Source: a virus | Direction: 5' to 3' (one strand) | DNA length: 64,000 nucleotides | Virus record (IMG/VR): IMGVR_UViG_3300025674_000016 | Location: 91,703-155,702 of that record | Position numbers and translations under genes: made by a program | The notes under the pieces: generated by a model | Databases searched by the model: none | Seen by the model: the letters and a program-made list of their open reading frames with translations, nothing else | Told to the model about the DNA's origin: nothing | Shown here: positions 326 to 62,210 of the stretch, one piece after another | Numbering within the stretch: the stretch's first letter is position 1 | Layout: every line of letters begins with the position of its first letter

Positions 326-2065
326 ATGAGCGTTTTACAAAAGTTAACCGAAGGCATTGTTAATCGTAACATCCAGAAAGAGGGCGAAGCTCTTCTCCAG
401 AAGTGGGAGCAGACTGGTCTTCTTGAGGGTATGGATAACGAAAATGCCCGTTCAAACATGGCTGTTCTCTTGGAGAACCAGGCCAAAGAGCTTCTCCGAG
501 AGGCTTCTTCTATGGCGGCTGGTGATGTCGAAGGCTTTGCCAGCGTGGCATTCCCCATCGTCCGCCGAGTCTTTGGTGGTCTTATCGCCAACCAATTGGT
601 CTCAGTCCAACCTATGAGCTTGCCTGCTGGCTTGATTTTCTTCCTTGACTTTACTTATACCGATAGCCGCGCTGGTCAAACTGCCGGTGAGTCGGTATAT
701 GGTGGTAATGTTGTTGGTAAGGGTCTTGTCGATGGTGTGGACCTGTCTCCGACTGGAGATACGCAAGCGGGTGGTTTTTATGACCTTAGCACTGGCTATA
801 GTTCTCCAACTGGCTCTGTTTCTGTTACCACAGCAGCACCAGACGGCTCTACTGGTGATTTGCCAACTGTGCTAACTGATGTTGCAGTTAGTGCTCTATC
901 GGAAGCACAAAAAAAGGCCCTCCAGTACGACCCGGATATCCTAGCAGATGCAAGCTTGAAAGTCACAGTTCACAAGTCGCCTAACGCTGCTACTTCCGAT
1001 TTCCCAAACTTGAATCTAAATGCCCTGACTGCAATTGAGGCATCTGGTATTGATGGTGTTCTAGTGCGAAGGCTAACTAGAATTGATAAAAACGATAGCA
1101 ACAAATTAGTTTTTGTAGTTATTAGGGACGCTGCGACACCAGAGGCGCACGGAGCTATCACCTTTAACTATCCGATGACAGACAAGTATGAAGCTAGTAC
1201 CGCCATTGGTTCTGTTGTTGGTAACGTTCCATTTGGCCTTGAGGGTGCAGATGATGTGTCTGGCGGTGATTTTGACGGTTCAACCCGCGATAGAATCCCA
1301 GAGATTGATATCAAGGTCGATTCTGTCAGCGTGACCGCTGTCACCAAGAAGTTGAAGGCCAAGTGGACCCCTGAGTTGTCTCAGGATCTTAATGCTTTCC
1401 ACAACATGGACGCAGAAGTAGAGCTTACATCGATCCTTTCCGAGCAGATTGCTCTTGAAATCGATCAGGAAATCTTGAATGATCTTGTTAAGGATGCTAC
1501 TGCTGGCACATACTATTGGAGCCGTCGCCCCGGTCGCTTTGTTGATCGCGGCACTGGCGATGATATCAGCGGCCTTTCTAACGAATCTCTCTTGGGTGCA
1601 GATTTCACTGGCACAGTCAGTGAATGGTACGAGACCCTTATTGAGACAATCAACGATGTCTCTGCGCAGATCCACCGCAAGACTCTGCGCGGCGGAGCTA
1701 ACTTCTTGGTCTGTGGTCCTGAGACCGCAAATGTCCTAGAGTTCACCGCTGGTTTCCGCGCTAGCGTTACCCACGATGCAGATACTGGCCAAGCCGGTAC
1801 TGTTAAGATCGGTGCGATCTCCAAGAAGTTCGACGTTTACGTCGATCCTTACTTCCCAAGAAACGTGGTTCTAGTTGGCCGCAAGGGCTCCAGCTTCCTT
1901 GAAAGTGGCTACGTCTACGCACCTTATGTGCCTCTACAGGTCACGCCGACTATCTTCGGTGTTGAGGACTTTGTGCCTCGTAAGGGCGTTATGACGCGCT
2001 ACGCCAAGAAGATGGTGAGGCCCGACATGTACGGCTTGGTTGTTATCAAGGACTTCCTTGGCTGA
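326..2065 (+). CDS. gp23: Major capsid protein, T4 gp23-like
   Basis: KWEQTGLLEG, LLENQ, VSVQPM, KLKAKWTPE..QDL.A.H, EIDQEIL, GYVYAPYVPL, GVMTRYA motifs; SD AAGGAG. Confidence 0.96.
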   Translation: MSVLQKLTEGIVNRNIQKEGEALLQKWEQTGLLEGMDNENARSNMAVLLENQAKELLREASSMAAGDVEGFASVAFPIVRRVFGGLIANQLVSVQPMSLPAGLIFFLDFTYTDSRAGQTAGESVYGGNVVGKGLVDGVDLSPTGDTQAGGFYDLSTGYSSPTGSVSVTTAAPDGSTGDLPTVLTDVAVSALSEAQKKALQYDPDILADASLKVTVHKSPNAATSDFPNLNLNALTAIEASGIDGVLVRRLTRIDKNDSNKLVFVVIRDAATPEAHGAITFNYPMTDKYEASTAIGSVVGNVPFGLEGADDVSGGDFDGSTRDRIPEIDIKVDSVSVTAVTKKLKAKWTPELSQDLNAFHNMDAEVELTSILSEQIALEIDQEILNDLVKDATAGTYYWSRRPGRFVDRGTGDDISGLSNESLLGADFTGTVSEWYETLIETINDVSAQIHRKTLRGGANFLVCGPETANVLEFTAGFRASVTHDADTGQAGTVKIGAISKKFDVYVDPYFPRNVVLVGRKGSSFLESGYVYAPYVPLQVTPTIFGVEDFVPRKGVMTRYAKKMVRPDMYGLVVIKDFLG

Positions 2066-7840: not shown

Positions 7841-8431
7841 GTGGCTTTTTTTACAGAAAAAACACTCAACCCAAAAAGAAAATTTAGATGGGTTGTCGAT
7901 ATCGGTACTGGTAATGATACTAATAGTATTTTAAGAGTGGCTGCAAAGTCTGTTCAGAAACCAAACTATACACTAGAGACGACACAGCATAAATTTTTAA
8001 ATCATCAATTTAATTACCCGAACAGGGTTATCTGGCAGCCTATTGATATCACATTTGTTGATCACCTAGGTCGAGGAGGAACCAGTGTCTCGTCGAGACT
8101 TTACGCCTTGTTACTATCTTCAGGATATCAAATCCCTGCAAACCCCTTCAACTGTGAGCTATCGCCAACTAAAAACAGAGCAGTTGGGGCGCTAGGCAGT
8201 GTAAAGATCGTTCAACTATCAGGTGATGCAGGACGCGCACGATTTACAGTTGATGAAATAGACGGCAGAGCGCCGGGTGCCCCCCAACGGTCTGATGTAA
8301 TTGAAACATGGACCCTAGGTAACGCCTTTATTTCCAAAGTTACTTTTGGAGATTTGTCATATGATGATGATGGATTGGTGGAGATCCAATGCACCTTTAC
8401 TTATGACTATGCTGAATTTCAAGGCAAATGA
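7841..8431 (+). CDS. gp19: Tail tube protein (gp19-like)
   Basis: PKRKFRW, W.PI.ITFVD, ETWTL..AF...V.FGDLSY, F.YDYA; follows the sheath gene. Confidence 0.85.
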   Translation: MAFFTEKTLNPKRKFRWVVDIGTGNDTNSILRVAAKSVQKPNYTLETTQHKFLNHQFNYPNRVIWQPIDITFVDHLGRGGTSVSSRLYALLLSSGYQIPANPFNCELSPTKNRAVGALGSVKIVQLSGDAGRARFTVDEIDGRAPGAPQRSDVIETWTLGNAFISKVTFGDLSYDDDGLVEIQCTFTYDYAEFQGK

Positions 8432-20426: not shown

Positions 20427-20434
20427 TTTTTTGC

Positions 20435-20463
20435 TTGACAGGCTGTTTTTGTTCTGTCATACT
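20435..20463 (+). promoter_or_regulatory. sigma70-type promoter of the SSB gene
   Basis: TTGACA-N17-CATACT. Confidence 0.7.
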
Positions 20464-20520
20464 GTTCGCAGATGGTTGAACGCCATCAACTATAGACCCA
20501 TTAACACATAGGAGGAAAAA

Positions 20521-21276
20521 ATGGGACTTAACATGGATAAGATTCGCGCTAAGTACAATGCTCTCAAGAACGGTGGTGCCAAGGGTGAAACCAAGAACAA
20601 CTTCTGGAAGCCTCAAGAAGGTGAGCAGACAATTCGTATTGTGCCTACGCCCGATGGTGATCCGTTCCGAGACTATTGGTTCCACTACAACGTGGGCAAG
20701 GCAATGGGCTTCTTGAGCCCAAAAAAGAACTTTGGCGAGGAAGATCCCTTGAATGACTTTGTTCGTTCTCTCTGGTCCGACTACAACCAAACTCAAGACG
20801 AGGAAACCAAAAAGCTGGCAAAAGACCTGAGCGCCAAGCAACGTTTCTTTGCTCCTGTGCTTGTGCGAGGAGAGGAAGATCAGGGTGTTCGCATCTGGGG
20901 CTTCTCCAAGACTGTCTACGAGGATATTCTGGGCATGATCTTGGACCCTGACTATGGTGATATCACCGACATTGATCGAGGGTTTGACTTGAAGGTCACA
21001 TACGGTAAGCCTGCTGGAGCGCAGTATCCAAAGACCACAATCAAGGCTCGTCGTAACCCTACGCCCCTGAGCGAGGATAGAAACCAGGTGTCTGCTTGGC
21101 TGGACAACATTCCAGACTACAACACCCTGTTCCCTCGCAAGACCCCTCAAGAAGTCCAAGTTATTTTGGACGAGTTCCTGATGGCGGGTTCCAACCCTGA
21201 AGAGGTCTCCTCCGAGACCACCCGCTACTCAAACGGTGCAACCGACGTTGACAAGGCTTTCGACGACCTTCTCTGA
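20521..21276 (+). CDS. Single-stranded DNA-binding protein (gp32-like)
   Basis: FWKP..G...IRIVP, DYGDITD...G.DL, acidic tail AFDDLL. Confidence 0.85.
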   Translation: MGLNMDKIRAKYNALKNGGAKGETKNNFWKPQEGEQTIRIVPTPDGDPFRDYWFHYNVGKAMGFLSPKKNFGEEDPLNDFVRSLWSDYNQTQDEETKKLAKDLSAKQRFFAPVLVRGEEDQGVRIWGFSKTVYEDILGMILDPDYGDITDIDRGFDLKVTYGKPAGAQYPKTTIKARRNPTPLSEDRNQVSAWLDNIPDYNTLFPRKTPQEVQVILDEFLMAGSNPEEVSSETTRYSNGATDVDKAFDDLL

Positions 21277-21296
21277 TCCTTTTTAACCTAACCCAA

Positions 21297-21320
21297 GGGG
21301 GCCATCGTGCCCCCGCTTTT
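21297..21320 (+). terminator. Probable terminator after SSB
   Basis: GGGGGC-catcgt-GCCCCC followed by gcTTTT. Confidence 0.6.
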
Positions 21321-21332
21321 CAAGGAGACAAA

Positions 21333-22421
21333 ATGGTTGACATTGAAGCAATGCGCAAATTGCTTAACAAAAAGGCAGGTATGCCCGTTGCGCACAATCT
21401 TAAACAACAAAACCCAACAGAGGTAAAAGATTGGATTCCAACTGGCTCTCGCTGGTTGGACTCAATTATTTGTCGTGGCAAGTTGGCCGGTATTCCTGTT
21501 GGAAAGGTGGTTGAGATTGCAGGGCTGGAAGCAACTGGCAAGAGCTATATGGCCGCCAAGATCGCAAGCAACGCCCAGCGTCTAGGTCATACTGTAGTTT
21601 ATTTTGACTCAGAGTCAGCGATTGACCCAAGCTTTCTTGCAAATGCTGGGTGCGATGTCGAGACCCTTATCTATGTTCAGGCCCAGACTGTTGAGTTTGT
21701 GTTGGAGTCCATTGAGGAGTTCTTGAAGACCGGAGAACAGTTTTTATTTATTTGGGATTCTCTTGCTCTGACGCCTGCTATTTCCGATGTTGAGGGCGAC
21801 TTTAATCCCCTATCATCTATGGCTGTCAAAGCAAGAATCTTGGCAAAGGCAATGTCAAAGATTACGATCCCAATTGCCAATTCTCAATCAACCTTATTGG
21901 TCCTCAACCAGTTAAAGACGAACATCACTAGGAACCCCAACATGGCCCTCGTTGAGCCCTACGTTACTCCTGGTGGCAAGGCGATGGCTTATACTTACAG
22001 CCTTCGCATCTGGCTAACTGGTCGTAAATCAAAGGCGTCCTATATCAACGACGACAACGGATTCAGAATCGGCTCAGAAGTAAAGGCTACGTTGAAGAAA
22101 TCTCGCTTTGGAACGGCAGGAAGGCAAGCAACGTTTAAGATCCTATGGGGCGATGAGGTGAGGATCTTAGACGAAGAAAGTTGGCTGGAGGCTATTAAAA
22201 AAAGCAAGAACATCACGATCAAGGGCTCGTGGTATTACATGAATATGGGCAACGGAGAGGAAATGAAGTTCCAGCCCGGACGTTGGATGGATATGATGGA
22301 GAATCCAGAGTTCAAAGCTCGCGTACTAGAGATCATGGAAGAAGAGGTTATCCTCAACTTCAAGAACCGCGAAGGAGATTCTCAAGGCTTTTATGATATT
22401 GACGGTGATGAAGATGAATAA
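21333..22421 (+). CDS. recA: RecA/UvsX recombinase
   Basis: WIPTGS..LD, Walker A GLEATGKS, YFDSE, WDS, LNQ, TPGGKA. Confidence 0.93.
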   Translation: MVDIEAMRKLLNKKAGMPVAHNLKQQNPTEVKDWIPTGSRWLDSIICRGKLAGIPVGKVVEIAGLEATGKSYMAAKIASNAQRLGHTVVYFDSESAIDPSFLANAGCDVETLIYVQAQTVEFVLESIEEFLKTGEQFLFIWDSLALTPAISDVEGDFNPLSSMAVKARILAKAMSKITIPIANSQSTLLVLNQLKTNITRNPNMALVEPYVTPGGKAMAYTYSLRIWLTGRKSKASYINDDNGFRIGSEVKATLKKSRFGTAGRQATFKILWGDEVRILDEESWLEAIKKSKNITIKGSWYYMNMGNGEEMKFQPGRWMDMMENPEFKARVLEIMEEEVILNFKNREGDSQGFYDIDGDEDE

Positions 22422-24342
22422 AAACTTTATCTTCATATTGTTCGCAGTCGCCTTCTTGTCTTGTCAAGAGGGTGGCAGGTCCGTTGAAACCCCCTGTGAG
22501 AAGGGGGATATTATGTTGTGTGATGGTGAGACAGTTGGCAACTGCGAGCCTGGATATCGTGTGTGTTTTGAGAATGTTTTGGACAATCCAGTAACAACCT
22601 ATTGGAGCGAATGTATAGACCGCAAAGACCCCGAAGAAGAACGCTGCAACTATAGTGATGACGATTGTGATGGTGAGATAGATGAGGGTGTTGCAAACCT
22701 TTGTGGCAAGTGTGGTCTTGAGCCACAAGAACTTTGCAATAAAAATGATGACGATTGCGATGGTGAGATAGATGAAGGTTTCGCTGGGCAAAGAGAGCTT
22801 TGCAATGGTATTGATGAAGACTGTGACGGGGTAATTGATGAGGGTCTAAGCAAGCGTCAAGCTTGCGAGCCACCAAATGTTCAAGCAGGAATAATTTATA
22901 ATGATGACCCCGGCTCAAGGTCTTCTTGTTTAAGGGGCTGGACAGAGTGCAGAGAAGGCAGTTGGACACCTTGTGCAGAGTGGCAAGGACCAACGCCTGA
23001 AATCTGTGATGGCATCGACAACAATTGTAATGGCGACACAGATGAAATTGACGCACTTAGAAGGCCATGTGGATTTTCTAATATAGGGCAGTGCGAATTT
23101 GGTATTGAGATCTGCTTTGACAACGATATTATCTGTGTTGATAGTGTTGGACCGCAAAATGAAATTTGCGATGGAATCGACAATGACTGCGACTGGTATA
23201 TTGATGAAGAATTAGCTCGTGAGTGTTCAACCATTTGCGGCGAAGGAGTGGAGAGGTGCCAAGAAGGCACTTGGATTGACTGCACTGCCCCACAGCCAGT
23301 TGCTGAAGTTTGTAATGGTGTTGATGATGACTGCGATGGCCTAGTGGATGAAGATATTTTTTGTGAGTGTCAAGCAGGTGCAATGCAGCCTTGTATTGCA
23401 GAGCCTTGTGGCTGGGGCACTCAAGTTTGTTTAGAGGAGGGAGTTTGGGATGTTTGTGTTGGCGGAGTTGTTCAAGCTGAGCTTTGCAATAATCACGATG
23501 ACAATTGCAACCAACAGGTTGATGAGAACCTTTCAAGACCGTGTTATGAAGGGCCTGAGAACACTCAGGGTGTTGGAGTATGCGTTGGAGGCATAGCAGA
23601 GTGCAGAGAGGGGGAGTGGCAAGATTGTGTCGGCCAAGTTGTTCCCAATCAAGAATTATGCGACGGCATCGATAACGACTGTGATGGAAACATTGATAAC
23701 CTTGAAAGATTTTTTGAAAAGGTCGATATGGTCTTCGTTGTTGATGTATCCGGTTCGATGAATAGTTTTATTGATTCTATAGCGACTGGTATCACAAGAT
23801 ATGTGAGCAGTATTCGAGGGCAAAATCATAAATTTGGTTTGATTTTGTATGGATCAAACTTCTATACTGATTATGGAGAATCTATTTTATTTTTACAACT
23901 CTCTGAAATAAGCGATCTCCTGCTTGCTTTGGCTAATATAATTCTTAGTGGACAAGATGAGCCTTCGATTGATGCGATTTTCTTTGCATCCAACCCATCG
24001 AATGAGTTACAATTGGCCTGGAGATCAGACGCAACTCCAATTATTATTTTGCTTAGCGATGAGGAACCACAAACTAGGCTGTTTTTAACTCAACAAGATT
24101 TACAGGGCTTAACAAGAACTTGTTTGCTGCCTGGTTGCAATTCGCAAACAAACGATAATTGGACAGACGGAGACCCACTTGAACTTTTTGCTTTTGTTGA
24201 GTCATCATCGATTATCTTTTGGGAAAGTGCAATATTCGCAGAAGGCAACAGAGTATTCAACATTCAGAGATTGCTCTTTGACGACATGCTTGAGGCAGAT
24301 TTAGAACTAATTTTCAGGGAGGTGTGCAGAGAAACAGAATGA
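22414..24342 (+). CDS. Lipoprotein with many E.C(N/D)G.D(N/D)DCDG..DE repeats (MopE-type metal-binding motif) and a C-terminal vWA domain
   Basis: Signal peptide ending FLSC; about 8 Cys/Asp repeats; MIDAS motif DVSGS and LLSDE. Confidence 0.8.
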   Translation: MNKNFIFILFAVAFLSCQEGGRSVETPCEKGDIMLCDGETVGNCEPGYRVCFENVLDNPVTTYWSECIDRKDPEEERCNYSDDDCDGEIDEGVANLCGKCGLEPQELCNKNDDDCDGEIDEGFAGQRELCNGIDEDCDGVIDEGLSKRQACEPPNVQAGIIYNDDPGSRSSCLRGWTECREGSWTPCAEWQGPTPEICDGIDNNCNGDTDEIDALRRPCGFSNIGQCEFGIEICFDNDIICVDSVGPQNEICDGIDNDCDWYIDEELARECSTICGEGVERCQEGTWIDCTAPQPVAEVCNGVDDDCDGLVDEDIFCECQAGAMQPCIAEPCGWGTQVCLEEGVWDVCVGGVVQAELCNNHDDNCNQQVDENLSRPCYEGPENTQGVGVCVGGIAECREGEWQDCVGQVVPNQELCDGIDNDCDGNIDNLERFFEKVDMVFVVDVSGSMNSFIDSIATGITRYVSSIRGQNHKFGLILYGSNFYTDYGESILFLQLSEISDLLLALANIILSGQDEPSIDAIFFASNPSNELQLAWRSDATPIIILLSDEEPQTRLFLTQQDLQGLTRTCLLPGCNSQTNDNWTDGDPLELFAFVESSSIIFWESAIFAEGNRVFNIQRLLFDDMLEADLELIFREVCRETE

Positions 24343-24868: not shown

Positions 24869-25158
24869 ATTACGGAGAGATTAAGCTAGAAACGGATAGC
24901 GTTAGCGCACTAACAGATAGTAGTGGAAACGAACTAGAAGGGTTATATCTTCTCAGGCTCGCCAAGTGGGTCCATCTTCTTGATGAGGACAAGTGGGTCA
25001 AACTTGATGCGCCTCTTGTTGAGGGAGGGGTGGTTAGGGAAGTCGAGCCACACACCGAAGGTGCAATGAGAATTATATTGCATGATACAAGTGAAGAATT
25101 CTTTAACCCCCACCATCACTGGTTTGTTCCACTTGAGGGAGGACAAAAAAATGAGTGA
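24865..25158 (+). CDS. Hypothetical protein
   Basis: SD AGGAGG; ATGA coupling. Confidence 0.6.
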   Translation: MNYGEIKLETDSVSALTDSSGNELEGLYLLRLAKWVHLLDEDKWVKLDAPLVEGGVVREVEPHTEGAMRIILHDTSEEFFNPHHHWFVPLEGGQKNE

Positions 25159-25489
25159 AAAAGAGATTATGATTGGCATTTGGGACTGCGACTTGCCGCC
25201 GGATGAGTTAGGTAGAAGATTTATTGCTATGCCTGACACTTTCTTTAAAGAATATACAGAGGTATATATCGACACAATAAATAAACCATCCATGCTTGTA
25301 CATGGCCCCAATGACGATGGATTTAGAAGAAACTATAGGGGAATACGCCAGGTTGGCCCACCCGATAATGGTTTCGATCAGTATTTTCATAGCTTGGGCT
25401 ATAAGGAGGGAGATCAGTTCCCGATAACTGTAGAGTGTTGTGACAACCAGTTCTGGCTTGTGAACCCAGGAGAGTTAGGCCGAGAATGA
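25151..25489 (+). CDS. Hypothetical protein
   Basis: SD GGAGG before MSEKE. Confidence 0.55.
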   Translation: MSEKEIMIGIWDCDLPPDELGRRFIAMPDTFFKEYTEVYIDTINKPSMLVHGPNDDGFRRNYRGIRQVGPPDNGFDQYFHSLGYKEGDQFPITVECCDNQFWLVNPGELGRE

Positions 25490-25505
25490 AGGATTTTTAC
25501 AAAAT

Positions 25506-25727
25506 ATGCGAAATATGAAAGTTAGAGGGGACTTTTGCCCTAGTTGCAAGAAAATAACAGAGTGGCACCCCATTCCTGATTCGCTAGCTTCTTTCTGTGA
25601 GTGCGGCTTTGTTCGGTGCGGATGGGGCAAGAAGGATGAAAGCGGGACAAGAATTTATGATGCGGGCGTCACAATACAAGAGTGGCTGGAGTGGCTACAT
25701 AAGAGATCTGAGGAGGAAGAGGAATGA
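25506..25727 (+). CDS. Small zinc-ribbon protein
   Basis: CPSC...CECG. Confidence 0.5.
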   Translation: MRNMKVRGDFCPSCKKITEWHPIPDSLASFCECGFVRCGWGKKDESGTRIYDAGVTIQEWLEWLHKRSEEEEE

Positions 25728-26050
25728 GCGATGAATTTGCAGATAAGAAAGGGATTCGTTGGAATCCCAAAGAAATGCTCAATGACCTGTGGCAGCGTCT
25801 CGAAACTGCAAAAGCATTTCACAAGGTTGCCGTAGAAGAAAGAGACTATGAAAGAGCCCTCTGTGACCGATACAAAAAAGAACTGTACGAACTTCGCTCA
25901 CTTTATGAGGGTGTTCTTTCTCGCATCAACAAGTTGGAAGACGACACAAGAGCAGCAATAGAGTTTAATGAAGATGTGTTGCATGATGATACTGCTACCC
26001 TGATGATCTTAGAGTTTTGCGAGGACATTACAAAGTTGGTTGGAGAATAA
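25724..26050 (+). CDS. Hypothetical coiled-coil protein
   Basis: SD GAGGA; coupled. Confidence 0.55.
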   Translation: MSDEFADKKGIRWNPKEMLNDLWQRLETAKAFHKVAVEERDYERALCDRYKKELYELRSLYEGVLSRINKLEDDTRAAIEFNEDVLHDDTATLMILEFCEDITKLVGE

Positions 26051-26051
26051 A

Positions 26052-26291
26052 ATGAGCGCAGACATTGAACTTTTTAGAGACACTCATTATGGCTTAGAAA
26101 CTTCTTTATCTATGGAAATAAAGGCGCAAGGCTGGGTTTCTTTATGTATTGAAAACGATCATGTAAAAGCCCCCGGCGATTCTCAAATCTCTGAGGTGTG
26201 GCTAAACTTGCAAGAAGAAGAACATAGAAATGTCGCCAAAAACCTTATCAAACATCTACAACACCAACTAAACATTTGGGATGAGAAATGA
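26052..26291 (+). CDS. Hypothetical protein, paralog of 26830..27054
   Basis: Shared W..L...E.R.....LI.HLQHQL.I C-terminus. Confidence 0.55.
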   Translation: MSADIELFRDTHYGLETSLSMEIKAQGWVSLCIENDHVKAPGDSQISEVWLNLQEEEHRNVAKNLIKHLQHQLNIWDEK

Positions 26292-26355
26292 GTGAAAACA
26301 ACAACTACACAACAAAGGACAAAGAAATGAGTGAAAACAACAACTACACAACAAA
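26284..26355 (+). repeat. 33-nt direct repeat (39-nt period) duplicating the start of ORF 26288
   Basis: AGAAATGAGTGAAAACAACAACTACACAACAAA occurs twice. Confidence 0.9.
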
Positions 26356-26833
26356 AGAAAAATGGGAAAAGACCGGCCTACTTGATTCTCTTTCTGACGA
26401 GAAAGCAAGCAAAATTGCACATCTATTCGAGAACCAGGCCCGATACCTAATGAGCACTTTTAGTGATCGAGACATTCCTAGCGAGTTTGGATTTTTAAAT
26501 AGATCCTTTGCGATAATTCGGGATGTCTTTGAAGGGGATGACTTGTCTTTTACATTTGAAGCAACCAACCTCCCTGCCTTTATTTACGCAAAAGAAGGAC
26601 AAACTGATGAAGAGGGGGCGGCCATGACAACCACGCCCCATCAGTTCGACACCCAGCCCACGAGTGAAGACGACGCCACTATTGCTGAAATTGTGAGAAA
26701 AGAACTTAATAGTAGGTACGCTGGCAAACATTTGATCTTTGGTGCGCCGCTTGTGGATGTTAACGGTTTTGGCTGTGTCTGCGCGGCTGTTGACGGCGGC
26801 TCAAGATTGGTTTTTGGAGGATATGAGAAATGA
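26288..26833 (+). CDS. Protein containing a homolog of the major capsid protein N-terminus
   Basis: KWEKTGLLDSL...IAHLFENQARYL...F.IIRDVF aligns with MCP KWEQTGLLEGM...MAVLLENQAKEL...FPIVRRVF. Confidence 0.75.
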   Translation: MSENNNYTTKDKEMSENNNYTTKEKWEKTGLLDSLSDEKASKIAHLFENQARYLMSTFSDRDIPSEFGFLNRSFAIIRDVFEGDDLSFTFEATNLPAFIYAKEGQTDEEGAAMTTTPHQFDTQPTSEDDATIAEIVRKELNSRYAGKHLIFGAPLVDVNGFGCVCAAVDGGSRLVFGGYEK

Positions 26834-27054
26834 GTAGTAGCGTCGAAATAAAAGATGATGGTTGTAAATCTCTTTCTCTCGACATAAGAACATCTGGTGT
26901 CGGACTTGAGGTTTGGAGAGAGGACGCCGAAGGGACGGAACTTATTACGATCTGGTTTGGTCTAAGGCGTAAGGAAGACAGAGAAGAATTACAAAAACTT
27001 ATTTTTCATCTCCAACATCAATTGGAGATTCATGAGAGGTTAGGTTGGGAATGA
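26830..27054 (+). CDS. Hypothetical protein, paralog of 26052..26291
   Basis: HLQHQL motif; SD GGAGG. Confidence 0.55.
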   Translation: MSSSVEIKDDGCKSLSLDIRTSGVGLEVWREDAEGTELITIWFGLRRKEDREELQKLIFHLQHQLEIHERLGWE

Positions 27055-27365
27055 ACGAGGCAAAGAGAATAAAAAAGTTCCTGCGAAACAAAGACAATAA
27101 AGTTATTGTAAAAATTGTTGAGACAGACCCTTGGGGTGGAGATGTGGTCTTGACCACTACATTGACTTATGATGATCTGGTAAAAGAAACCTTGCTATGG
27201 GAACAAAAGTTCAAGCAGGACTACGGATGCTTACCGGGAATTGTTATGGATGCCCCCTGGCTTATCTACTTTGTCACAATAGAGAATAAAGAAGGCGAGG
27301 AGCTTTATAAAAAAACTTTCTGGAAGAAGGAAGAAACAAGAGAATTCCTTAATGACGAGGGATGA
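27051..27365 (+). CDS. Hypothetical protein
   Basis: Coupled ORF. Confidence 0.5.
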   Translation: MNEAKRIKKFLRNKDNKVIVKIVETDPWGGDVVLTTTLTYDDLVKETLLWEQKFKQDYGCLPGIVMDAPWLIYFVTIENKEGEELYKKTFWKKEETREFLNDEG

Positions 27366-27769
27366 TGATGAATAGGTTTTACCAGAGACTTGTGGACATT
27401 ACGTCTAATGAGCGGTATTTTTACAGTGATTTCGATATCACTTTCGGAAAGCAGAAAGGGCCAAACCCAGATCCCATCGAGGTTCGTTGTAGTTTTCAAG
27501 ATTTGGTAAAGCTTTGTGATGACATTGAATCTGAAGGGTTCACGGGAATCATTGAGTTGGACCCTAGAAGGCTTTTGTTTGGAGTTCGCTTCGTGACCCA
27601 TGTCGGAGATCCCGATGAGATTGTAAAGGTTTTTTGTGACGTGAGGGGTATCCACCTCATCATCCAAAGCCTTAAATTGAGTTATCCCGATGTAGTCGAA
27701 GAATTTAACACTCTTTTTTCATCTGAAGGTGAGCCTTTCTTTTCCAAGTTGGCTTTGAGGTGGAGGTGA
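27362..27769 (+). CDS. Hypothetical protein
   Basis: Coupled ORF with SD GAGG. Confidence 0.5.
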   Translation: MMMNRFYQRLVDITSNERYFYSDFDITFGKQKGPNPDPIEVRCSFQDLVKLCDDIESEGFTGIIELDPRRLLFGVRFVTHVGDPDEIVKVFCDVRGIHLIIQSLKLSYPDVVEEFNTLFSSEGEPFFSKLALRWR

Positions 27770-27773
27770 TAAA

Positions 27774-27962
27774 ATGAAACCAGGTAATTTGGTAAAGCCT
27801 AAACACAAATACTCCTACAACGAAGCGGGGATTGGGGTATTGCTTGAAATAGAAAAAGGCTTTTATAGACATAATGATTATTTCCAAGATCGTTTGACAA
27901 TATATTGGCTCCACGGGGAGGTAACTAGAGAACCTGATTCTTATGTGGAGGTGATAAAATGA
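27774..27962 (+). CDS. Small KOW/SH3-like protein (K.GDLV family)
   Basis: MKPGNLVK...GVLL...IYW; SD GGAGG. Confidence 0.6.
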   Translation: MKPGNLVKPKHKYSYNEAGIGVLLEIEKGFYRHNDYFQDRLTIYWLHGEVTREPDSYVEVIK

Positions 27963-28192
27963 ATTGTGAAGATTGTGAAAAAGAAGTAAGGGCGGCAACT
28001 GCTCCTATGTGGGTGACAATTGAACACCAAGCATTACAACTACGACAGATCTCTCAACTATGCTGGGAGATCGTAAATGAGTTGCAAGAAGCAGACAACC
28101 TCCTAGTTGGTGAATACCCAGACGAGTTTTCAAAAGTCTTTGATATTGCAGGTGAAATCGAGGATTGGTTAGTGAGGACAAAGAAAAAATAA
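27959..28192 (+). CDS. Hypothetical protein
   Basis: SD GGAGG. Confidence 0.5.
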   Translation: MNCEDCEKEVRAATAPMWVTIEHQALQLRQISQLCWEIVNELQEADNLLVGEYPDEFSKVFDIAGEIEDWLVRTKKK

Positions 28193-28223
28193 CTATTTAT
28201 ATTCACCACAGGAGGGTAAGAAG

Positions 28224-28520
28224 TTGAAGATAATAAAGTCAAAACTAATACAAATAATTAAAGAAGAGCTTGATAAAGAGGCGGTGAGGTCAGAAAAGGA
28301 GGCGGCTGTCGATTCCTTGCTGGGCAGTAGGCCACTTACCATTCCTCAACTAGAGCTTCTTTTTCCAAATTCTGAAGCTGAAGATATAAAAAATATAGAA
28401 ACAGAACTTAAAAAGTTTGAAGAATTTGACCGCGAAGGGTACAGAGAAGCCTTGCTTGACCTTCTTTATCAACAGAAACCTATTGACCCCGAAGGAAACC
28501 CCTTGGAATTCTCCTCTTGA
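28224..28520 (+). CDS. Probable internal head protein with capsid-targeting-type leader
   Basis: AACTATTTA at 28191; N-terminus MKIIKSKLIQIIKEE. Confidence 0.55.
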   Translation: MKIIKSKLIQIIKEELDKEAVRSEKEAAVDSLLGSRPLTIPQLELLFPNSEAEDIKNIETELKKFEEFDREGYREALLDLLYQQKPIDPEGNPLEFSS

Positions 28521-28545
28521 CATCCCACCCCTAATCGTCTATAAT
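28517..28545 (+). promoter_or_regulatory. Consensus sigma70 promoter
   Basis: TTGACA-N17-TATAAT. Confidence 0.85.
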
Positions 28546-28576: not shown

Positions 28577-29530
28577 ATGAGTAGAATTTTAATTGTAGAC
28601 GCACAAAACATGCTTGTAAGAAATTGGGTCGTTGACCCTAGCCTAGCCCTTAATGGGGCTCCGATTGGAGGACTAAAGGGTTTTCTCAAGAGTTTGCAAA
28701 AAGTCTCCAGAGAGACCAATCCAGATAAGATCGTTATTTGCTGGGATGGAGAGGGAGGGTCAAAAAGGAGAAAAACGCAAAACAAAAATTACAAGAAAGG
28801 TCGAAAACCAATAAGATTGAATAGATCTTCTAATAATTTAAATCAAGCAGAGATAGACCAGAACAGAATCTGGCAGCAGTTGCGGCTTGTTGAGTACCTT
28901 AATGAGATGCCAGTATATCAACTTATGCTAAAGCATGTTGAGGCTGACGACTTGATTGCCTTTACAACACAATTTCAAGACTTTAAAGATGATCAAAAAG
29001 TTATTGTGTCCTCGGACAAAGACTTCTTTCAACTTTGCAACAAAAACACCATCTTGATAAGACCAATTCAAAAGGTCATCTTAAATGAAAGCAAGATAGT
29101 TGAGGAATACAACATCCACCCAAACAACTTTGCTCTTGCTCGTGCTATTTGCGGCGACAAATCAGATAACATTGAGGGCATCCAGGGTGCGGGCTTGCCA
29201 ACGGTTGCAAAGCGTTTTCCTTTTTTGAAAGAAGAGAAGTCTTATACCGTGTCTGATATCGTGAATCACTGCGAAGAACAAGAAAAAAAGCTTGTTGTCC
29301 ATGAAAGAATCCTCAAGGGCAAGGATAAAGTGCTTGACAACTATAAGCTTATGCAACTATACTCTCCAACAATGTCGCCACAGGGCGCAGGACTTCTCAG
29401 AGAAGAGTTAAGAAATAAAAAGTTAATTTTCAACAAAACCAAACTCACAACAATGATGTTTAAGGATGGAATCGGTGAATACAACTGGACAGATCTCTGG
29501 AATTGCTACAACAACATCGTCTGGGGCTGA
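28577..29530 (+). CDS. 5'-3' exonuclease/flap endonuclease (PolI N-domain / T4 RNase H-like)
   Basis: LIVDAQN, WDG, YK.GR, EADD, SSDKDF.QL, GDKSDNI.G. Confidence 0.92.
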   Translation: MSRILIVDAQNMLVRNWVVDPSLALNGAPIGGLKGFLKSLQKVSRETNPDKIVICWDGEGGSKRRKTQNKNYKKGRKPIRLNRSSNNLNQAEIDQNRIWQQLRLVEYLNEMPVYQLMLKHVEADDLIAFTTQFQDFKDDQKVIVSSDKDFFQLCNKNTILIRPIQKVILNESKIVEEYNIHPNNFALARAICGDKSDNIEGIQGAGLPTVAKRFPFLKEEKSYTVSDIVNHCEEQEKKLVVHERILKGKDKVLDNYKLMQLYSPTMSPQGAGLLREELRNKKLIFNKTKLTTMMFKDGIGEYNWTDLWNCYNNIVWG

Positions 29531-29531
29531 A

Positions 29532-30239
29532 GTGGAATTGAAAACCTGCTCAAATTGCAAAACAGAAAAGCCCCTAACAGAATTTTCTAAAGATAGAAGC
29601 AAAAAAGACGGCACCAGAAATTATTGCAAGTGCTGCGCAAAAGCCAGAAACAAAGCTTACTACGAGGCCAACCGAGAAAAGGAAAAGGCCAGAAAAAAAG
29701 CTTGGCGCGAGGCCAATCCAGAAAAGATAAAAGCTTGGCGCGAGGCCAACCGAGAAAAGATAAGAGCCAGAGAAAAAGCTTGGCAGGAGGCCAACCGAGA
29801 AAAGGAAAAGGCCAGAAAAAAAGCTTACTACGAGGCCAACCGAGAAAAGGTAAAGGACAGAGTAAAAGCTTACCGCGAGGCCAACCGAGAAAAGGTAAAG
29901 GCATATGGAAAAGCTTACCGCGAGGCCAACCGAGAAAAGCTTAAAGCCAAGCTCAAAGCTCTGCGCAAGACACCTCGTGGCAAATTTTTTAGAGTCAGGG
30001 ACTCCGCAAAGCAGAGGGGAATAGAGTTTCTATTGACAGAGGGGCAGGCCGCTGAAATGATAAAAAAGCCCTGCACATATTGTGGAAAGCCGGGACTATC
30101 AGGGATTGATAGGATCGACTCCAATGGTGTCTATACTATAGAAAACTGCGAGCCATGCTGTTATTCTTGCAACACTCGAAAGGGAACTAAATCAAAAGAA
30201 GTTTTCTTGCAAGAAATAAAGGAAGGAAAATGGAATTGA
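29532..30239 (+). CDS. HNH-type homing endonuclease-like protein with zinc ribbon and tandem helical repeats
   Basis: KTCSNC...YCKCC; about 8 (K)AxxEANxEK repeats; CTYCG..GIDRIDS...CC..CN..KG; GTG start inferred from the paralog. Confidence 0.75.
   Translation: MELKTCSNCKTEKPLTEFSKDRSKKDGTRNYCKCCAKARNKAYYEANREKEKARKKAWREANPEKIKAWREANREKIRAREKAWQEANREKEKARKKAYYEANREKVKDRVKAYREANREKVKAYGKAYREANREKLKAKLKALRKTPRGKFFRVRDSAKQRGIEFLLTEGQAAEMIKKPCTYCGKPGLSGIDRIDSNGVYTIENCEPCCYSCNTRKGTKSKEVFLQEIKEGKWN
29652..29940 (+). repeat. Coding tandem repeat with 33- and 45-nt units
   Basis: GAGGCCAA(C/T)C(G/C)AGAAAAG occurs about 8 times. Confidence 0.9.
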
Positions 30240-60110: not shown

Positions 60111-60184
60111 GCACCCATAGCTCAATCGGATAGAGCACCGGCCTTCTAAGCCGTAGGTTCCAGGTTCGAGTCCTGGTGGGTGTG
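60111..60184 (+). tRNA. tRNA-Arg(UCU)
   Basis: Cloverleaf; anticodon loop CT-TCT-AA; T-loop TTCGAGT. Confidence 0.92.
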
Positions 60185-60213
60185 CTGGTTGTGAGACAAC
60201 AACGGAGGATGAG

Positions 60214-60543
60214 ATGAAAGTCGAAGAAAAAAGAATGTGGACAATTACATTTACCACTGACGAAGTGCAGGAGGTTATCAATCTCCTTGTTGAGGAGAAC
60301 CTCTTCAGAGGCGTAGACCTAAGTCGCGCAAATCTCTTTGAGGCAAACCTTCATGGCGCAAACCTCAGTTGCGCAATTCTCAGTTGCGCAAACCTCACTG
60401 GCGCAGGTCTAAGCGCCGCAGACCTCACCAGCGCAGACCTCCGTGAGGCAAACCTCACCAACGCAAAGCTCACAGACGCCGATATAGAAGAATCGGCTCT
60501 GCGACAAGCAAACATTTGTGAATGCGATCCAAGCGATGTCTAG
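60214..60543 (+). CDS. Pentapeptide-repeat protein, paralog of 59747
   Basis: Shared MK.EE...WTITF N-terminus; ANL repeats. Confidence 0.88.
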   Translation: MKVEEKRMWTITFTTDEVQEVINLLVEENLFRGVDLSRANLFEANLHGANLSCAILSCANLTGAGLSAADLTSADLREANLTNAKLTDADIEESALRQANICECDPSDV

Positions 60544-60562
60544 GAACACAATAGGAGACGCC

Positions 60563-61462
60563 ATGAAACTAGGCTATGCCTGCATCAATACAGAGTTGAC
60601 AGAAAGAGGTGTCTCTTCAAACAGAGGCATGATCAAGCGAACCTTTCAGGCCAAGGGCGTTAACTACGCATCAGAGATCGCCCTTGCAAACGTGAGGGCA
60701 CTGAAGGAAATTATTCAGTGGAATGCAGATAACGACATTCATGTATACAGAATGTCAAGCCTTTTGTTTCCTTGGATGTCCGAGTATGAGATTCAAGACC
60801 TCCCAGATATTGATCTCATCAAGACTACCCTGCTGGCCTGCGGCAAACTTGCCAGACAACACGCCCAGCGCCTCAGTTTTCACCCAGGACCGTACAACGT
60901 CCTGTGCAGTCCCAAAGATAATGTCGTAGATAAAACAATAAAAGAACTAAATCAACACAGCGAGATCATGGACTTGATGGGCCTGCCACGCTCGCCATAT
61001 GCCAAGATAAATATTCACTTGGGTGGCGCATACGGCGACCACGCAGGTTCAATGGCGCGGTTCTGCACCAATTTCCAGCGCCTTGACGAAGGCACCAGGG
61101 CTCGCCTCACCGTTGAGAATGACGACAAGCCCTCTATGTATTCCACTAAGATGCTGTATGAAGGTGTCCATAAGGTAATTGGAACACCAATTGTCTTCGA
61201 CTCGCACCATTTCAGTCTCGGCCCACAAGACCAGACATACGAAGAAGCTTTCTATCTTGCTCGCAAGACTTGGGAAGGCACTGGAGTCAAGCAGATTTGC
61301 CATCATTCTAACTCTAGGCGCAAATATGACGACCCAAAGGCCAAGCCTGTCGCACATAGCGACCTTATTCACGAGAGATTCGAGAACTTCGGAGAAGATA
61401 TTGATCTTGTCTTGGAGGCAAAGAAAAAAGAATTAGCGATCAAACACTATCCAAAAAGCTGA
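60563..61462 (+). CDS. uvsE: UV damage endonuclease
   Basis: LGYACIN, R.SS..FP, HPG, IH.GG, ENDD, D.HH, H.S, HSD, EAK.KE. Confidence 0.93.
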   Translation: MKLGYACINTELTERGVSSNRGMIKRTFQAKGVNYASEIALANVRALKEIIQWNADNDIHVYRMSSLLFPWMSEYEIQDLPDIDLIKTTLLACGKLARQHAQRLSFHPGPYNVLCSPKDNVVDKTIKELNQHSEIMDLMGLPRSPYAKINIHLGGAYGDHAGSMARFCTNFQRLDEGTRARLTVENDDKPSMYSTKMLYEGVHKVIGTPIVFDSHHFSLGPQDQTYEEAFYLARKTWEGTGVKQICHHSNSRRKYDDPKAKPVAHSDLIHERFENFGEDIDLVLEAKKKELAIKHYPKS

Positions 61463-61490
61463 ATAAATCGGCAGCCTGCCCTGTCTAAGG
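61460..61490 (+). promoter_or_regulatory. ECF-like promoter/stem-loop cassette, copy 6
   Basis: TGAATAAA-N13-CTGTCTAAGG. Confidence 0.8.
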
Positions 61491-61517
61491 TACGAGGCAG
61501 CAACAACGGAGGAAACA

Positions 61518-61763
61518 ATGCGACTCAAACTTGGTGATCTCGTAGAACTCAACTACGCAGGGAAAGGTACTCAATGGCTTTATCAAGCAAAAGGAAAGAT
61601 TGGGGTTTTAACAGAGATGTGTGACAGGCAGCTTTATAAAGAAGGCGCTGCTTATATTTCTTGGATTGATGTTCCCCCTCCTGAATATTGGGGATACCTC
61701 AATCTCAACAAAGTGGCTATTCCACTCTACTGCCTCAAGAAAGTAAGGAGAAAGAAGAAATGA
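61518..61763 (+). CDS. Small KOW/SH3-like protein
   Basis: LKLGDLVEL...GVL...ISW. Confidence 0.6.
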   Translation: MRLKLGDLVELNYAGKGTQWLYQAKGKIGVLTEMCDRQLYKEGAAYISWIDVPPPEYWGYLNLNKVAIPLYCLKKVRRKKK

Positions 61764-61984: not shown

Positions 61985-61999
61985 TTTTTTGAGAAAGTG

Positions 62000-62030
62000 T
62001 GAATAAACCTCTCGGCTGAACTGTCTAAGA
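62000..62030 (+). promoter_or_regulatory. ECF-like promoter, copy 7 (upstream of tRNAs)
   Basis: TGAATAAA-N13-CTGTCTAAGA. Confidence 0.8.
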
Positions 62031-62036
62031 GGTGAT

Positions 62037-62108: not shown

Positions 62109-62113
62109 TATCA

Positions 62114-62186: not shown

Positions 62187-62210
62187 TTCTTGGCCAAGAT
62201 TCGTTTTTTG

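What the first reader, a model, noticed from the sequence alone, without database searches (positions are those of the whole stretch)
26288..26833. Stand-alone capsid-protein N-terminus: possible capsid decoy or assembly interferer
Seen: residues about 24-82 (KWEKTGLLDSL-x8-IAHLFENQARYL...SFAIIRDVF) align with the phage's own MCP residues about 26-83 (KWEQTGLLEGM-x9-MAVLLENQAKEL...AFPIVRRVF). The rest of the 181 aa protein diverges. It sits 24 kb from the head genes in a small-ORF accessory cluster with no late motif. Known: some defence systems (CapRel, Lit) sense the MCP, and the gp23 N-terminal region acts in prohead assembly and is protease-processed. Inference: an early decoy for capsid sensors, a dominant-negative against competing relatives, or a chaperone/protease adaptor.
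Basis: partly seen in the sequence, partly recalled or inferred. Interest (0 to 1): 0.75.

Follow-up and report, generated by a model that had tools for sequence, protein, structure and literature searches.

The report
Cut-down capsid-protein copy among early genes
An uncultured T4-like phage carries, among its early replication genes, a small intact relative of its own shell protein that lacks the parts needed to build a shell, so it probably acts as a soluble look-alike of unassembled capsid protein, though its role is unproven.

Summary
ORF 26288-26833 matches the N-terminus of the phage's gp23-type capsid protein (326-2065): 36% identity, E 3e-11; profile-profile E 4e-21.

It is more than a stand-alone N-terminus. 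It belongs to an undescribed family of 168-226 aa proteins from uncultured phages, absent from Pfam and PHROGs. The family profile also matches the capsid protein's E-loop and spine helix (E 1e-10), and weakly its C-terminal strands.

AlphaFold models (pLDDT 88) resemble HK97-fold capsid proteins, best T4 gp24 (Z 6.1). The insertion domain and A-domain are missing.

The gene is under purifying selection (dN/dS about 0.2). It lies in the gp32-UvsX-RNaseH block, away from the late motif ACTATTTA, and one relative has its own sigma-70-type promoter.

It is accessory and mobile. Five relatives and two complete cultured relatives lack it, it sits in a different slot in a near-identical phage, and nearly identical copies occur in phages with different capsid proteins. 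The capsid protein's invariant L-x-E site is not conserved.

Best reading: a non-assembling capsid mimic that titrates a capsid-binding partner. Decoy versus assembly modulator is unresolved.

Earlier notes from this scan report other cut-down capsid paralogs on other DNA; none shares sequence with this family.

The parts
26288..26326 (+). Duplicated 39-nt leader: the first ATG plus 12 codons, in frame, probably a recombination scar
   Evidence: Tandem Repeats Finder reports 26284-26362, period 39, 2 copies, 95% match. The 95%-identical homolog P0004 and the L004 copy lack it. An orphan copy of the same leader precedes a different gene in L004 at 5854-5892. pLDDT is below 50 for residues 1-15.
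26327..26833 (+). Conserved coding sequence of the mini capsid-protein paralog (168 aa from the second ATG, with stop codon)
   Evidence: The family alignment starts at this Met. AAGGA lies 9 nt upstream, and the L004 ortholog has AGGAGG at the same spacing. blastn homology to L004 begins at 26316. dN/dS against L004 is 0.20.
26357..26536 (+). gp23-like delta-domain helices and N-arm (residues 24-83; motifs KWEKTGLL, ENQA, F.IIR.VF)
   Evidence: BLASTP E 3e-11 against the phage's own MCP. hhalign E 4.4e-21. Helices 19-27, 37-58 and 65-82 in the model.
26537..26647 (+). Plain E-loop-like beta hairpins (residues 84-120), without the about 215-aa insertion domain that the MCP carries here
   Evidence: Strands 89-93, 97-101, 111-114 and 116-119. 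The profile of the family's C-terminal part (alignment columns from P0001 residue 84 onward), positions 9-95, aligns to MCP 322-409, probability 97%, E 1e-10.
26672..26719 (+). Spine-helix equivalent (residues 129-144), shortened in this subfamily
   Evidence: Helix 129-144. The family motif DAEVE....L.E....ELN aligns with the MCP's MDAEVELTSILSEQIALEIDQEIL. P0001 and P0004 lack about 25 residues here relative to other members.
26726..26815 (+). P-domain-like beta strands (residues 147-176; GKHLIFG.P ... GGSRLV). The A-domain is replaced by a tight turn.
   Evidence: Strands 147-157, 161-169 and 173-176. There is a weak collinear hhalign match to MCP 529-559, E 0.015. VIA-align pairs model residues 51-172 with T4 gp24 residues 10-384 using only 111 aligned residues.
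326..2065 (+). The phage's gp23-type major capsid protein, the full-length relative
   Evidence: Pfam Gp23 1.1e-71 and phrog_138. It follows a portal, gp21-like protease and 334-aa ORF head module. No gp24-like second copy occurs in the 155.7-kb record.
20521..24342 (+). Upstream genes of the same block: gp32, RecA/UvsX, and a MopE-repeat/VWA protein
   Evidence: Pfam gp32 2e-13, RecA 1.2e-35, MopE 2.7e-29 plus VWA. A TTGACA-17-CATACT promoter-like site lies in the gap before 20521.
25724..26050 (+). 108-aa ORF whose homolog lies directly upstream of the mini gene in the 192-aa subfamily
   Evidence: 54-68% identity to ORFs lying upstream of the mini gene in L095, L096 and L099 (abutting it in L095 and L099). 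No Pfam match.
26040..26291 (+). 83-aa ORF whose stop overlaps the mini's first ATG; a paralog of the ORF on the other side
   Evidence: 35% identity over 75 aa to 26830-27054, E 8e-7. No Pfam match.
26830..27054 (+). 74-aa ORF overlapping the mini's stop; a paralog of 26040-26291
   Evidence: Its L004 ortholog (8190-8408, 67% identity) is not adjacent to the mini gene there.
28517..28545 (+). Perfect sigma-70 consensus promoter that closes the small-ORF cluster and precedes the 5'-3' exonuclease gene (28577-29530)
   Evidence: TTGACA-17-TATAAT, 12 of 12. Homologous contigs carry 5_3_exonuc in the same relative position.

Best explanation
Shown: the ORF encodes an intact, selected member of an undescribed family of miniature gp23-type capsid-protein paralogs. 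The protein keeps the delta-domain helices, N-arm, a plain E-loop, the spine helix and the P-domain strands. It lacks the insertion domain and the whole A-domain, so it cannot form capsomers the way the MCP does. The gene is accessory and moves between phages, and it lies in the early/middle replication-recombination block. Inferred: it is made before or alongside the capsid protein as a soluble, non-assembling mimic of unassembled MCP, and it works by competing for something that normally binds the MCP's delta/N-arm/P-domain module. My preferred partner is a host factor that recognises newly made capsid protein, such as an immune sensor. In that case the mini protein would be a decoy or antagonist that can be carried between phages whatever their exact capsid protein.
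For: Identity: N-terminal homology; second collinear block matching the MCP E-loop and spine helix: E 1e-10 profile-profile, about 1e-7 in each of five relatives' MCPs, 7e-5 pairwise. Two AlphaFold models have pLDDT 87.6 and 88.4 and pTM 0.83 and 0.85. Their best structural matches are HK97-fold proteins: T4 gp24 at Z 4.0 and 6.1, with the first 31 rows of the second search all capsid or encapsulin proteins. Functional gene: dN/dS 0.20 against L004 and 0.2-0.3 in the 192-aa subfamily; 25 representative hits in the exhaustive search (23 short, two full-length MCPs), with conserved full-length motifs in the 22 aligned members. Not a virion necessity: five relatives carry both the MCP and the exonuclease gene 25-31 kb apart but no mini gene, and the complete genomes of Mel-JY01 and RM378 have none. 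Portable: it sits in a different slot in L004, whose flanks are 98% identical. G006 and G007 share nearly identical mini genes (dN 0.022, dS 0.044) but have different MCPs of 637 and 583 aa, and no mini protein matches its own MCP best. Early setting: it sits downstream of gp32 and UvsX in one gap-free run of ORFs with no late motif. The G007 copy has a TTGACA-17-TATAGT promoter 97 nt upstream. Many defence systems are reported to sense capsid proteins (review PMC13728456).
Against: There is no direct evidence of any binding partner, expression time or phenotype. No phage-encoded capsid decoy is known from the literature searched. The segment best conserved between the mini protein and the MCP is the delta domain, which in T4-type phages faces the scaffolding core; that points at least as much to a prohead partner as to a host partner. 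A mimic of an activating ligand could trigger a sensor rather than block it. The conserved motifs may simply be needed for folding, since the model packs the delta helices onto the P-domain. Read-through from upstream late transcripts cannot be excluded in this window. A 120-aa variant without the N-terminal part is common (at least 19 contigs), so the gp23-like N-terminus is dispensable in some lineages.
Confidence: 0.35

Rival explanations
1. Prohead-associated accessory protein. The retained delta domain docks the mini protein onto the scaffolding core or protease. It would then be incorporated into, or modulate, the phage's own prohead, acting as an assembly timer, a size or shape modulator, a minor internal component, or injected cargo that uses the delta domain as a capsid-targeting signal.
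For: The strongest similarity to the MCP is in the delta-domain motifs KW..TGLL and ENQA. The phage has a T4-type head module with a gp21-like protease and a probable scaffold protein. From knowledge of T4 (from memory, not checked here), non-essential internal proteins are encoded in variable regions and are targeted to the core by an N-terminal signal. The MCP homolog Ccm co-assembles with a helper phage's coat protein and redirects capsid shape (PMC8569155).
Against: The gene is absent from five relatives with 62-66% identical MCPs and from complete cultured relatives. It lies in the replication block with host-type promoters and no late motif. The MCP's invariant L-x-E site is not conserved, at 6 of 25 members. 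Mini genes do not co-vary with their cognate MCPs. The E-loop strand motif that all MCPs share is replaced.
Confidence: 0.25
2. Weapon against competitors. A capsid look-alike that interferes with head assembly of co-infecting related phages, or soaks up capsid-redirecting proteins of satellites, while the phage's own MCP is insensitive.
For: This window's mini protein resembles other phages' MCP N-termini more closely (47.5% to the G007 MCP, 48-49% to L006, L010 and L013) than its own (36%). The gene is accessory and mobile. Satellites are known to use capsid homologs and external scaffolds (PMC8569155; 8g1r).
Against: The identity differences rest on about 60 residues and alignments of different lengths. 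The lattice-contact motif of the E-loop strand is not conserved. There is no evidence of satellites or co-infection. Without an A-domain it cannot join capsomers in the usual way.
Confidence: 0.1
3. Exapted fold. The P-domain/E-loop module has been recruited for a job unrelated to capsid mimicry, for example as an adaptor or partner for neighbouring accessory enzymes. The similarity to the MCP would then be only ancestry.
For: Neighbours vary across subfamilies. Examples are two glycosyltransferases and an epimerase around P0017, Dam, SLT and HSP20 near P0008, and an M23 peptidase and a lysozyme near the truncated variant. The N-terminally truncated 120-aa form persists in many contigs. A-domain-only HK97 derivatives pair with enzymes in archaea (PMC8346489).
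Against: No neighbour is conserved across subfamilies. The delta-domain motifs stay close to the MCP consensus over large evolutionary distances, which is unexpected if the MCP-like surface no longer mattered.
Confidence: 0.2
4. Decaying remnant of a duplicated capsid gene with no function.
For: The gene is small and carries internal deletions relative to the MCP. A leader duplication sits at its 5' end. This subfamily lacks about 25 residues that others keep. A truncated variant exists elsewhere.
Against: The frame is open in all members and dN/dS is 0.2-0.3. Conserved motifs run along the whole length across members that share 23-49% identity with this protein. The models are confident and compact. 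The domain deletions are precise and shared by the whole family.
Confidence: 0.03

Closest known systems
gp23-type major capsid protein (Pfam PF07068; T4 gp23, and this phage's own MCP at 326-2065)
   Same: It shares the delta-domain helices and N-arm motifs (E 3e-11 pairwise, 4e-21 profile-profile). It shares the E-loop return strand and spine helix (E 1e-10), and the C-terminal P-domain strands weakly. The model has an HK97-type core.
   Different: It is a third of the size. It has no insertion domain (MCP about 105-320) and no A-domain (MCP about 390-528). It gives no Pfam hit. The E-loop strand motif VSVQPM..P.G is replaced by L.FT.E...P.F. The L-x-E site is not conserved. The gene lies in the replication block rather than the head module, and is accessory and mobile.
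T4 gp24 head vertex protein (PDB 1yue)
   Same: It is the best structural match for both models (Z 4.0 with 111 residues aligned; Z 6.1 with 129 residues aligned, rmsd 3.9). Both are paralogs of the major capsid protein.
   Different: gp24 is a full-length HK97 protein with A and insertion domains. It forms pentamers at the vertices and is encoded in the head module. This phage's held record has no gp24-like gene.
SaPIbov5 Ccm, a capsid-protein homolog that redirects helper capsid shape (PMC8569155; PDB 7rwz)
   Same: It is a capsid-protein homolog encoded outside the normal head-gene role, and it acts through its resemblance to the coat protein. It appears among the structural matches (rank 34).
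   Different: Ccm has the complete HK97 fold including the A-domain, forms the pentamers of the shell, has a cleaved delta domain, and is encoded by a satellite rather than by the phage itself.
Family 4 'A-domain' encapsulins (PMC8346489)
   Same: They set a precedent for a stand-alone, heavily truncated HK97-fold protein that has left capsid building.
   Different: They are the complementary piece. They keep only the A-domain, whereas this family keeps everything except the A-domain. They are cellular, mostly archaeal, and paired with enzymes.
Gol region of T4 gp23, the trigger of the Lit protease through EF-Tu (PMC3014915)
   Same: The mini protein covers the equivalent first quarter of the capsid protein, which the review says binds EF-Tu and is the most conserved part of gp23.
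   Different: The segment that aligns with the conserved gp23 stretch RR..P.LIA....GVQPM..P.G keeps only RR.F, one L and one P in the family. A Gol-like activity is therefore doubtful. The exact Gol residue numbers are from memory and were not verified.

Membership tests
gp23-type major capsid protein (Pfam PF07068) | Scores above the Pfam Gp23 gathering threshold | tested here: not met
   P0001 gives no Pfam family at E up to 1. Only 1 of 22 family members gives a weak Gp23 hit, E 0.005.
gp23-type major capsid protein (Pfam PF07068) | N-terminal delta domain and N-arm with the KW..LLEG / ENQ / VRR motifs | tested here: met
   BLASTP E 3e-11, hhalign E 4.4e-21, and the joint alignment.
gp23-type major capsid protein (Pfam PF07068) | E-loop return strand and P-domain spine helix | tested here: met
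   hhalign probability 97%, E 1e-10 to MCP 322-409. Profile hits of about 1e-7 in five MCPs. Pairwise E 7e-5 to 2.5e-4 for G006 and G007. In P0001 itself this block is shortened.
gp23-type major capsid protein (Pfam PF07068) | A-domain forming the capsomer centre | tested here: not met
   After the spine helix the chain turns directly into the C-terminal strands. The hhalign blocks skip MCP 410-528.
gp23-type major capsid protein (Pfam PF07068) | Insertion domain within the E-loop | tested here: not met
   About 215 residues of the MCP (about 105-320) have no counterpart; the mini protein has a short hairpin there.
gp23-type major capsid protein (Pfam PF07068) | Gene in the head module next to the scaffold and protease genes, under late control | tested here: not met
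   It lies 24 kb downstream of the MCP, after gp32 and UvsX, with no ACTATTTA motif nearby. The head module is at L111 9758-18012.
gp23-type major capsid protein (Pfam PF07068) | Conserved prohead-protease site (L-x-E) between the delta domain and the N-arm | tested here: not met
   E is invariant in 16 of 16 MCPs but present in only 6 of 25 mini proteins, and it is T in P0001. That this E is the cleavage site is inferred by analogy with T4.
HK97 fold | Structural similarity of the N-arm, E-loop and P-domain core | tested here: met
   VIA-align: 9 of the top 10 rows for P0001 (best Z 4.0) and the first 31 rows for the 192-aa member (best Z 6.1) are HK97-fold proteins. The Z values are modest and Foldseek finds nothing. 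The structural evidence is supportive only together with the sequence profiles.
Ccm-type capsid-redirecting MCP homolog | Complete HK97 fold able to form pentamers; encoded by a satellite | tested here: not met
   There is no A-domain. The gene is in a phage genome with a full head, tail and replication gene set.
T4-type internal head protein with capsid-targeting sequence | Short N-terminal targeting peptide ending in a protease site; presence in virions | not testable with these tools
   No conserved L-x-E occurs near the N-terminus, but targeting through the delta domain and presence in the virion cannot be assessed from sequence.
Phage anti-defence decoy or sensor antagonist | Binds and neutralises a host sensor of capsid protein | not testable with these tools
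   Only circumstantial evidence exists: the accessory, mobile, early-region character. The host is unknown.

The most novel reading that the evidence does not exclude
Large T4-like phages carry portable capsid look-alikes, made early, that neutralise host immune sensors recognising newly made major capsid protein. This family (everything but the A-domain) would be one of several capsid-derived mini-protein families doing so, making capsid mimicry a general anti-defence strategy.
Probability: 0.22. Interest if true: 0.9.

Novelty: new variant of a known kind. Interest (0 to 1): 0.64.

Why it matters
Capsid proteins are now known to be common triggers of bacterial immunity (review PMC13728456). 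How phages cope with that, other than by point mutation, is open. A conserved, selected, horizontally mobile capsid-protein derivative that cannot build a shell and sits among early genes is a concrete candidate for a capsid mimic. It can be tested by expression, pull-down and deletion.

Whatever its function, the family shows a clean natural dissection of the HK97 fold: delta domain, N-arm, E-loop and P-domain fold confidently in prediction without the A-domain. This complements the A-domain-only encapsulins and is useful for understanding capsid folding and assembly.

Earlier unchecked notes from this scan describe other cut-down capsid paralogs in other uncultured phages. Such derivatives may therefore be a recurrent and so far undescribed feature of large phages.

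Tried and rejected
- **Family libraries.** Pfam and PHROGs scans of P0001 and of all 22 family members gave no family, only weak major-head-protein hits.
- **Solved structures by sequence.** The family profile gave only chance-level eS7 hits and T4 gp23 at E 0.17.
- **Foldseek.** Searches against PDB (both models) and BFVD (first model only) gave nothing at E below 0.001. The discontinuous match was recovered only by VIA-align.
- **Cultured phages.** tblastn with five family members against 50,697 phage records found only MCP N-termini.
- **ESM Atlas.** No usable hit.
- **Prokaryote genomes.** The scan gave five loci, all short N-terminal matches in MAG contigs, and none was examined further; it gave no host information.
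- **Recent duplicate of this phage's MCP: rejected.** The protein is closer to other mini proteins (37-44% over its full length) and to other phages' MCP N-termini than to its own MCP.
- **Pseudogene: rejected** by dN/dS and family-wide conservation.
- **The 39-nt leader as a shared address tag: rejected.** Only two copies exist in the 155.7-kb record, both at this gene. It looks like a recombination scar.
- **Gol/Lit-type mimic and protease substrate or adaptor: judged unlikely** because the relevant motifs are not conserved.
- **Conserved partner gene.** None is shared across subfamilies.
It is seen only around P0017, not in this window.

Full report
**Observation.** The ORF at 26288-26833 (+) encodes 181 aa. 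The phage's major capsid protein (MCP) is the 579-aa product of 326-2065, with Pfam Gp23 at 1.1e-71. BLASTP aligns ORF residues 24-109 with MCP residues 25-122 at 36% identity, E 3e-11. A six-frame search of the whole 155.7-kb virus record, of which the window is the last 64 kb, finds only the ORF itself and the MCP N-terminus.

**Gene model.** The first 39 nt of the ORF are a tandem duplicate of the next 39 nt (26284-26362, period 39). A 95%-identical homolog (P0004, 168 aa) and the ortholog in the closely related contig L004 start at the second Met. That ATG (26327) has AAGGA upstream, where L004 has AGGAGG. blastn homology to L004 begins at 26316. The conserved protein is thus 168 aa (26327-26833), and the extra 13 codons are in frame and probably harmless. 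An orphan copy of the same leader sits in front of a different gene in L004 (5854-5892). No further copy exists in this genome. I read the leader as a scar of recombination between similar gene starts (…AAAGAAATGAGTGAAAA…).

**A conserved family.** The word-index search found four 211-226-aa proteins covering 92-97% of the query at 37-44% identity. An exhaustive HMMER search of 1.84 billion representatives found 25 hits, of which 23 are 115-226 aa long and two are full-length MCPs. A pattern scan of IMG/VR built on the C-terminal motif found ten loci, nine with an intact 189-192-aa gene and one (L098) cut off by its contig end.
- The 22-sequence alignment has conserved positions along its whole length: KW..TGLL, ENQ, FP.IRR.F, L.FT.E, PAF, DAEVE, ELNEK..GKH.IF.TP.
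- dN/dS is 0.20 between the window and L004, and 0.2-0.3 within the 192-aa subfamily, in both halves of the protein.
- The family is not in Pfam or PHROGs.
- tblastn with five members did not find it in 50,697 phage records.

**More than an N-terminus.** hhalign of the whole family against an alignment of 16 MCPs reports only the N-terminal 66 columns (E 4.4e-21). When the family's C-terminal part is compared alone, its positions 9-95 align with MCP 322-409, the return strand of the E-loop and the spine helix, at 97% probability and E 1e-10. A third collinear block aligns weakly with MCP 529-559, E 0.015.
- Independently, the family profile hits each of five relatives' MCP genes twice, about 960 nt apart: positions 8-72 at about 1e-18 and positions 96-147 at about 1e-7.
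- Pairwise BLAST of the 192-aa members against their own MCPs gives the same second block, E 7e-5 to 2.5e-4.

**Structure prediction.** AlphaFold2 models of P0001 and of the 192-aa member from a 281-kb phage are confident: pLDDT 87.6 and 88.4, pTM 0.83 and 0.85. They show three N-terminal helices, two short hairpins, one long helix and a three-stranded sheet.
- Foldseek finds nothing.
- The exhaustive VIA-align search ranks HK97-fold proteins first. For P0001 the best match is T4 gp24 at Z 4.0, and 9 of the top 10 rows are HK97-type.
- For the 192-aa member the best match is gp24 at Z 6.1, with 129 residues aligned, rmsd 3.9, model 35-184 against chain 12-385. The first 31 rows are all capsid or encapsulin proteins.
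- The Z values are modest, so I rest the claim on sequence and structure together.

**Architecture.** The family is a gp23-type MCP from which the insertion domain (MCP about 105-320, inside the E-loop) and the A-domain (about 390-528) have been cleanly removed. P0001 and P0004 additionally lack about 25 residues before the spine helix.

**Context and timing.** Upstream lie gp32 (20521-21276), RecA/UvsX (21333-22421) and a MopE-repeat/VWA protein (22393-24342). These are followed by a gap-free run of small ORFs with overlapping stops and starts, which contains the gene. The run ends at a perfect TTGACA-17-TATAAT promoter in front of the 5'-3' exonuclease gene.
- Homologs on other contigs sit in the same kind of small-ORF cluster upstream of the exonuclease and ligase genes.
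- The motif ACTATTTA occurs eight times, always on the + strand, in front of structural and some other genes (0 of 100 shuffles reach 8). It has no copy between 7802 and 28192.
- In the 88-kb contig G007 the mini gene has its own TTGACA-17-TATAGT promoter 97 nt upstream, followed by a stem-loop.
- Early or middle expression is thus the likely inference, but it is not shown for this window.

**Accessory and mobile.** Five IMG/VR relatives with 62-66% identical MCPs carry both the MCP and the exonuclease gene 25-31 kb apart, as here, but no mini gene. The complete genomes of Microcystis phage Mel-JY01 and Rhodothermus phage RM378 have only the MCP hits.
- L004 is 98% identical to the window over gp32 through the 101-aa ORF, yet its accessory modules are shuffled. 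There the mini gene directly follows the 101-aa ORF.
- G006 (281 kb) and G007 (88 kb) carry nearly identical mini genes (dN 0.022, dS 0.044) but different MCPs of 637 and 583 aa. No mini protein is most similar to its own MCP.
- A 120-aa variant lacking the N-terminal part occurs on at least 19 contigs, behind an unrelated ORF.

**Motifs kept and lost.** In a joint alignment the delta-domain motifs are close to the MCP consensus.
- The glutamate of an L-x-E triplet is invariant in 16 of 16 MCPs. By analogy with T4 gp21 sites it is the likely maturation cleavage site. It is present in only 6 of 25 mini proteins and not in this one.
- The MCP's invariant E-loop strand (LIA..LVSVQPM.LP.G) is replaced by a different, family-specific motif.
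- That strand corresponds to the T4 gp23 stretch around residues 91-125. I recall this as the Gol region, but the coordinates were not verified.

**Mechanism.** Shown: an intact, selected, non-assembling derivative of the capsid protein that is dispensable, portable and placed among non-late genes. Inferred: it acts through resemblance to unassembled MCP, by occupying a partner of the delta/N-arm/P-domain module.
- I rank a host partner, such as an immune sensor, first (0.35). The gene travels between phages with different capsid proteins and is not needed for virions.
- A prohead partner (scaffold or protease) comes second (0.25), because the delta domain is the best-kept part.
- Interference with competitors or satellites (0.1), an exapted unrelated role (0.2) and decay (0.03) follow.

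**Comparison with known systems.** T4 gp24 and SaPIbov5 Ccm are MCP paralogs with complete HK97 folds that enter the shell. Family 4 encapsulins keep only the A-domain. The present family is the complementary truncation and is phage-encoded. I found no description of it in the literature searches.

**Earlier scan notes.** Unchecked notes of this scan report other cut-down capsid paralogs in other uncultured phages. None shares sequence with this family.

Noticed in passing
window 24869-28520 versus L004 4642-9600: Two phages that are 98% identical across gp32, UvsX, the MopE/VWA gene and the 101-aa ORF have their small accessory ORFs in different orders, with module boundaries exactly at gene junctions. 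The junctions share the motif AGGAGGACAAA(G/A)AAATGA (24855, 25141, 26317). This looks like modular shuffling by recombination at similar gene starts.
   Followed up: partly
window 2142, 4782, 7802, 28192, 37305, 45077, 54182, 56767 (+): The motif ACTATTTA occurs 8 times, always on the + strand and mostly 25-40 nt upstream of structural-gene starts (2.4 expected; no shuffle reaches 8). It is probably this phage's late-promoter element, and it differs from T4's TATAAATA.
   Followed up: partly
window 22393-24342 (+): A 649-aa protein with an N-terminal lipoprotein-like signal (…FLSCQ), five or more MopE-type Cys-rich metal-binding repeats and a VWA domain sits between UvsX and the small-ORF cluster. 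This is an unusual phage protein and may be envelope-associated.
   Followed up: partly
window 26040-26291 and 26830-27054 (+): The two small ORFs flanking the mini capsid gene are paralogs of each other (35% identity over 75 aa, E 8e-7; shared motif L..HLQHQL.I). Their function is unknown, and in L004 the ortholog is not next to the mini gene.
   Followed up: partly
L110 1373-1497 (contig G007): A sigma-70-type promoter (11 of 12) is followed by a 9-bp stem-loop with a T-run, immediately upstream of the mini capsid gene. It resembles the promoter-plus-stem-loop cassettes described around variable genes of T4-type phages (from memory).
   Followed up: no
L114 4645-5007 (also L115, L116): A 120-aa variant of the family lacks the gp23-like N-terminal part, sits behind an unrelated 188-aa ORF, and is found on at least 19 metagenome contigs next to an M23 peptidase, a tubulin-like gene and a lysozyme.
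   Followed up: partly
LR756508.1 438101-438433 and 69502-69720: A 484-kb uncultured phage gives, besides its MCP, two weak separate family-profile hits (E 2e-4 each). One is a 143-aa ORF matching the C-terminal two thirds and the other a 118-aa ORF matching the N-terminal part. They may be distant or split relatives.
   Followed up: no
L117 7362-11538: The 168-aa family member P0017 lies directly between two glycosyltransferase genes and an NAD-dependent epimerase on an 88-kb contig. An earlier scan note reported another cut-down capsid copy paired with a glycosyltransferase.
   Followed up: no
window 29466-30239 (+): A 257-aa ORF has a run of near-identical K(A)YREANREK repeats followed by a Cys-rich HNH-like C-terminus. 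The repeats produce three identical terminator-like hairpins on the minus strand (29702-29794).
   Followed up: no
window 60111-63588 (+): A cluster of seven tRNA genes (Arg-tct, Thr-tgt, Ala-tgc, Leu-tag, Met-cat, Leu-taa, Ile-tat) lies near the end of the record.
   Followed up: no
window 20427-21332: The gp32 gene is bracketed by a TTGACA-17-CATACT promoter-like site and a GC-rich hairpin with a T-run, so it looks like a self-contained transcription unit.
   Followed up: no
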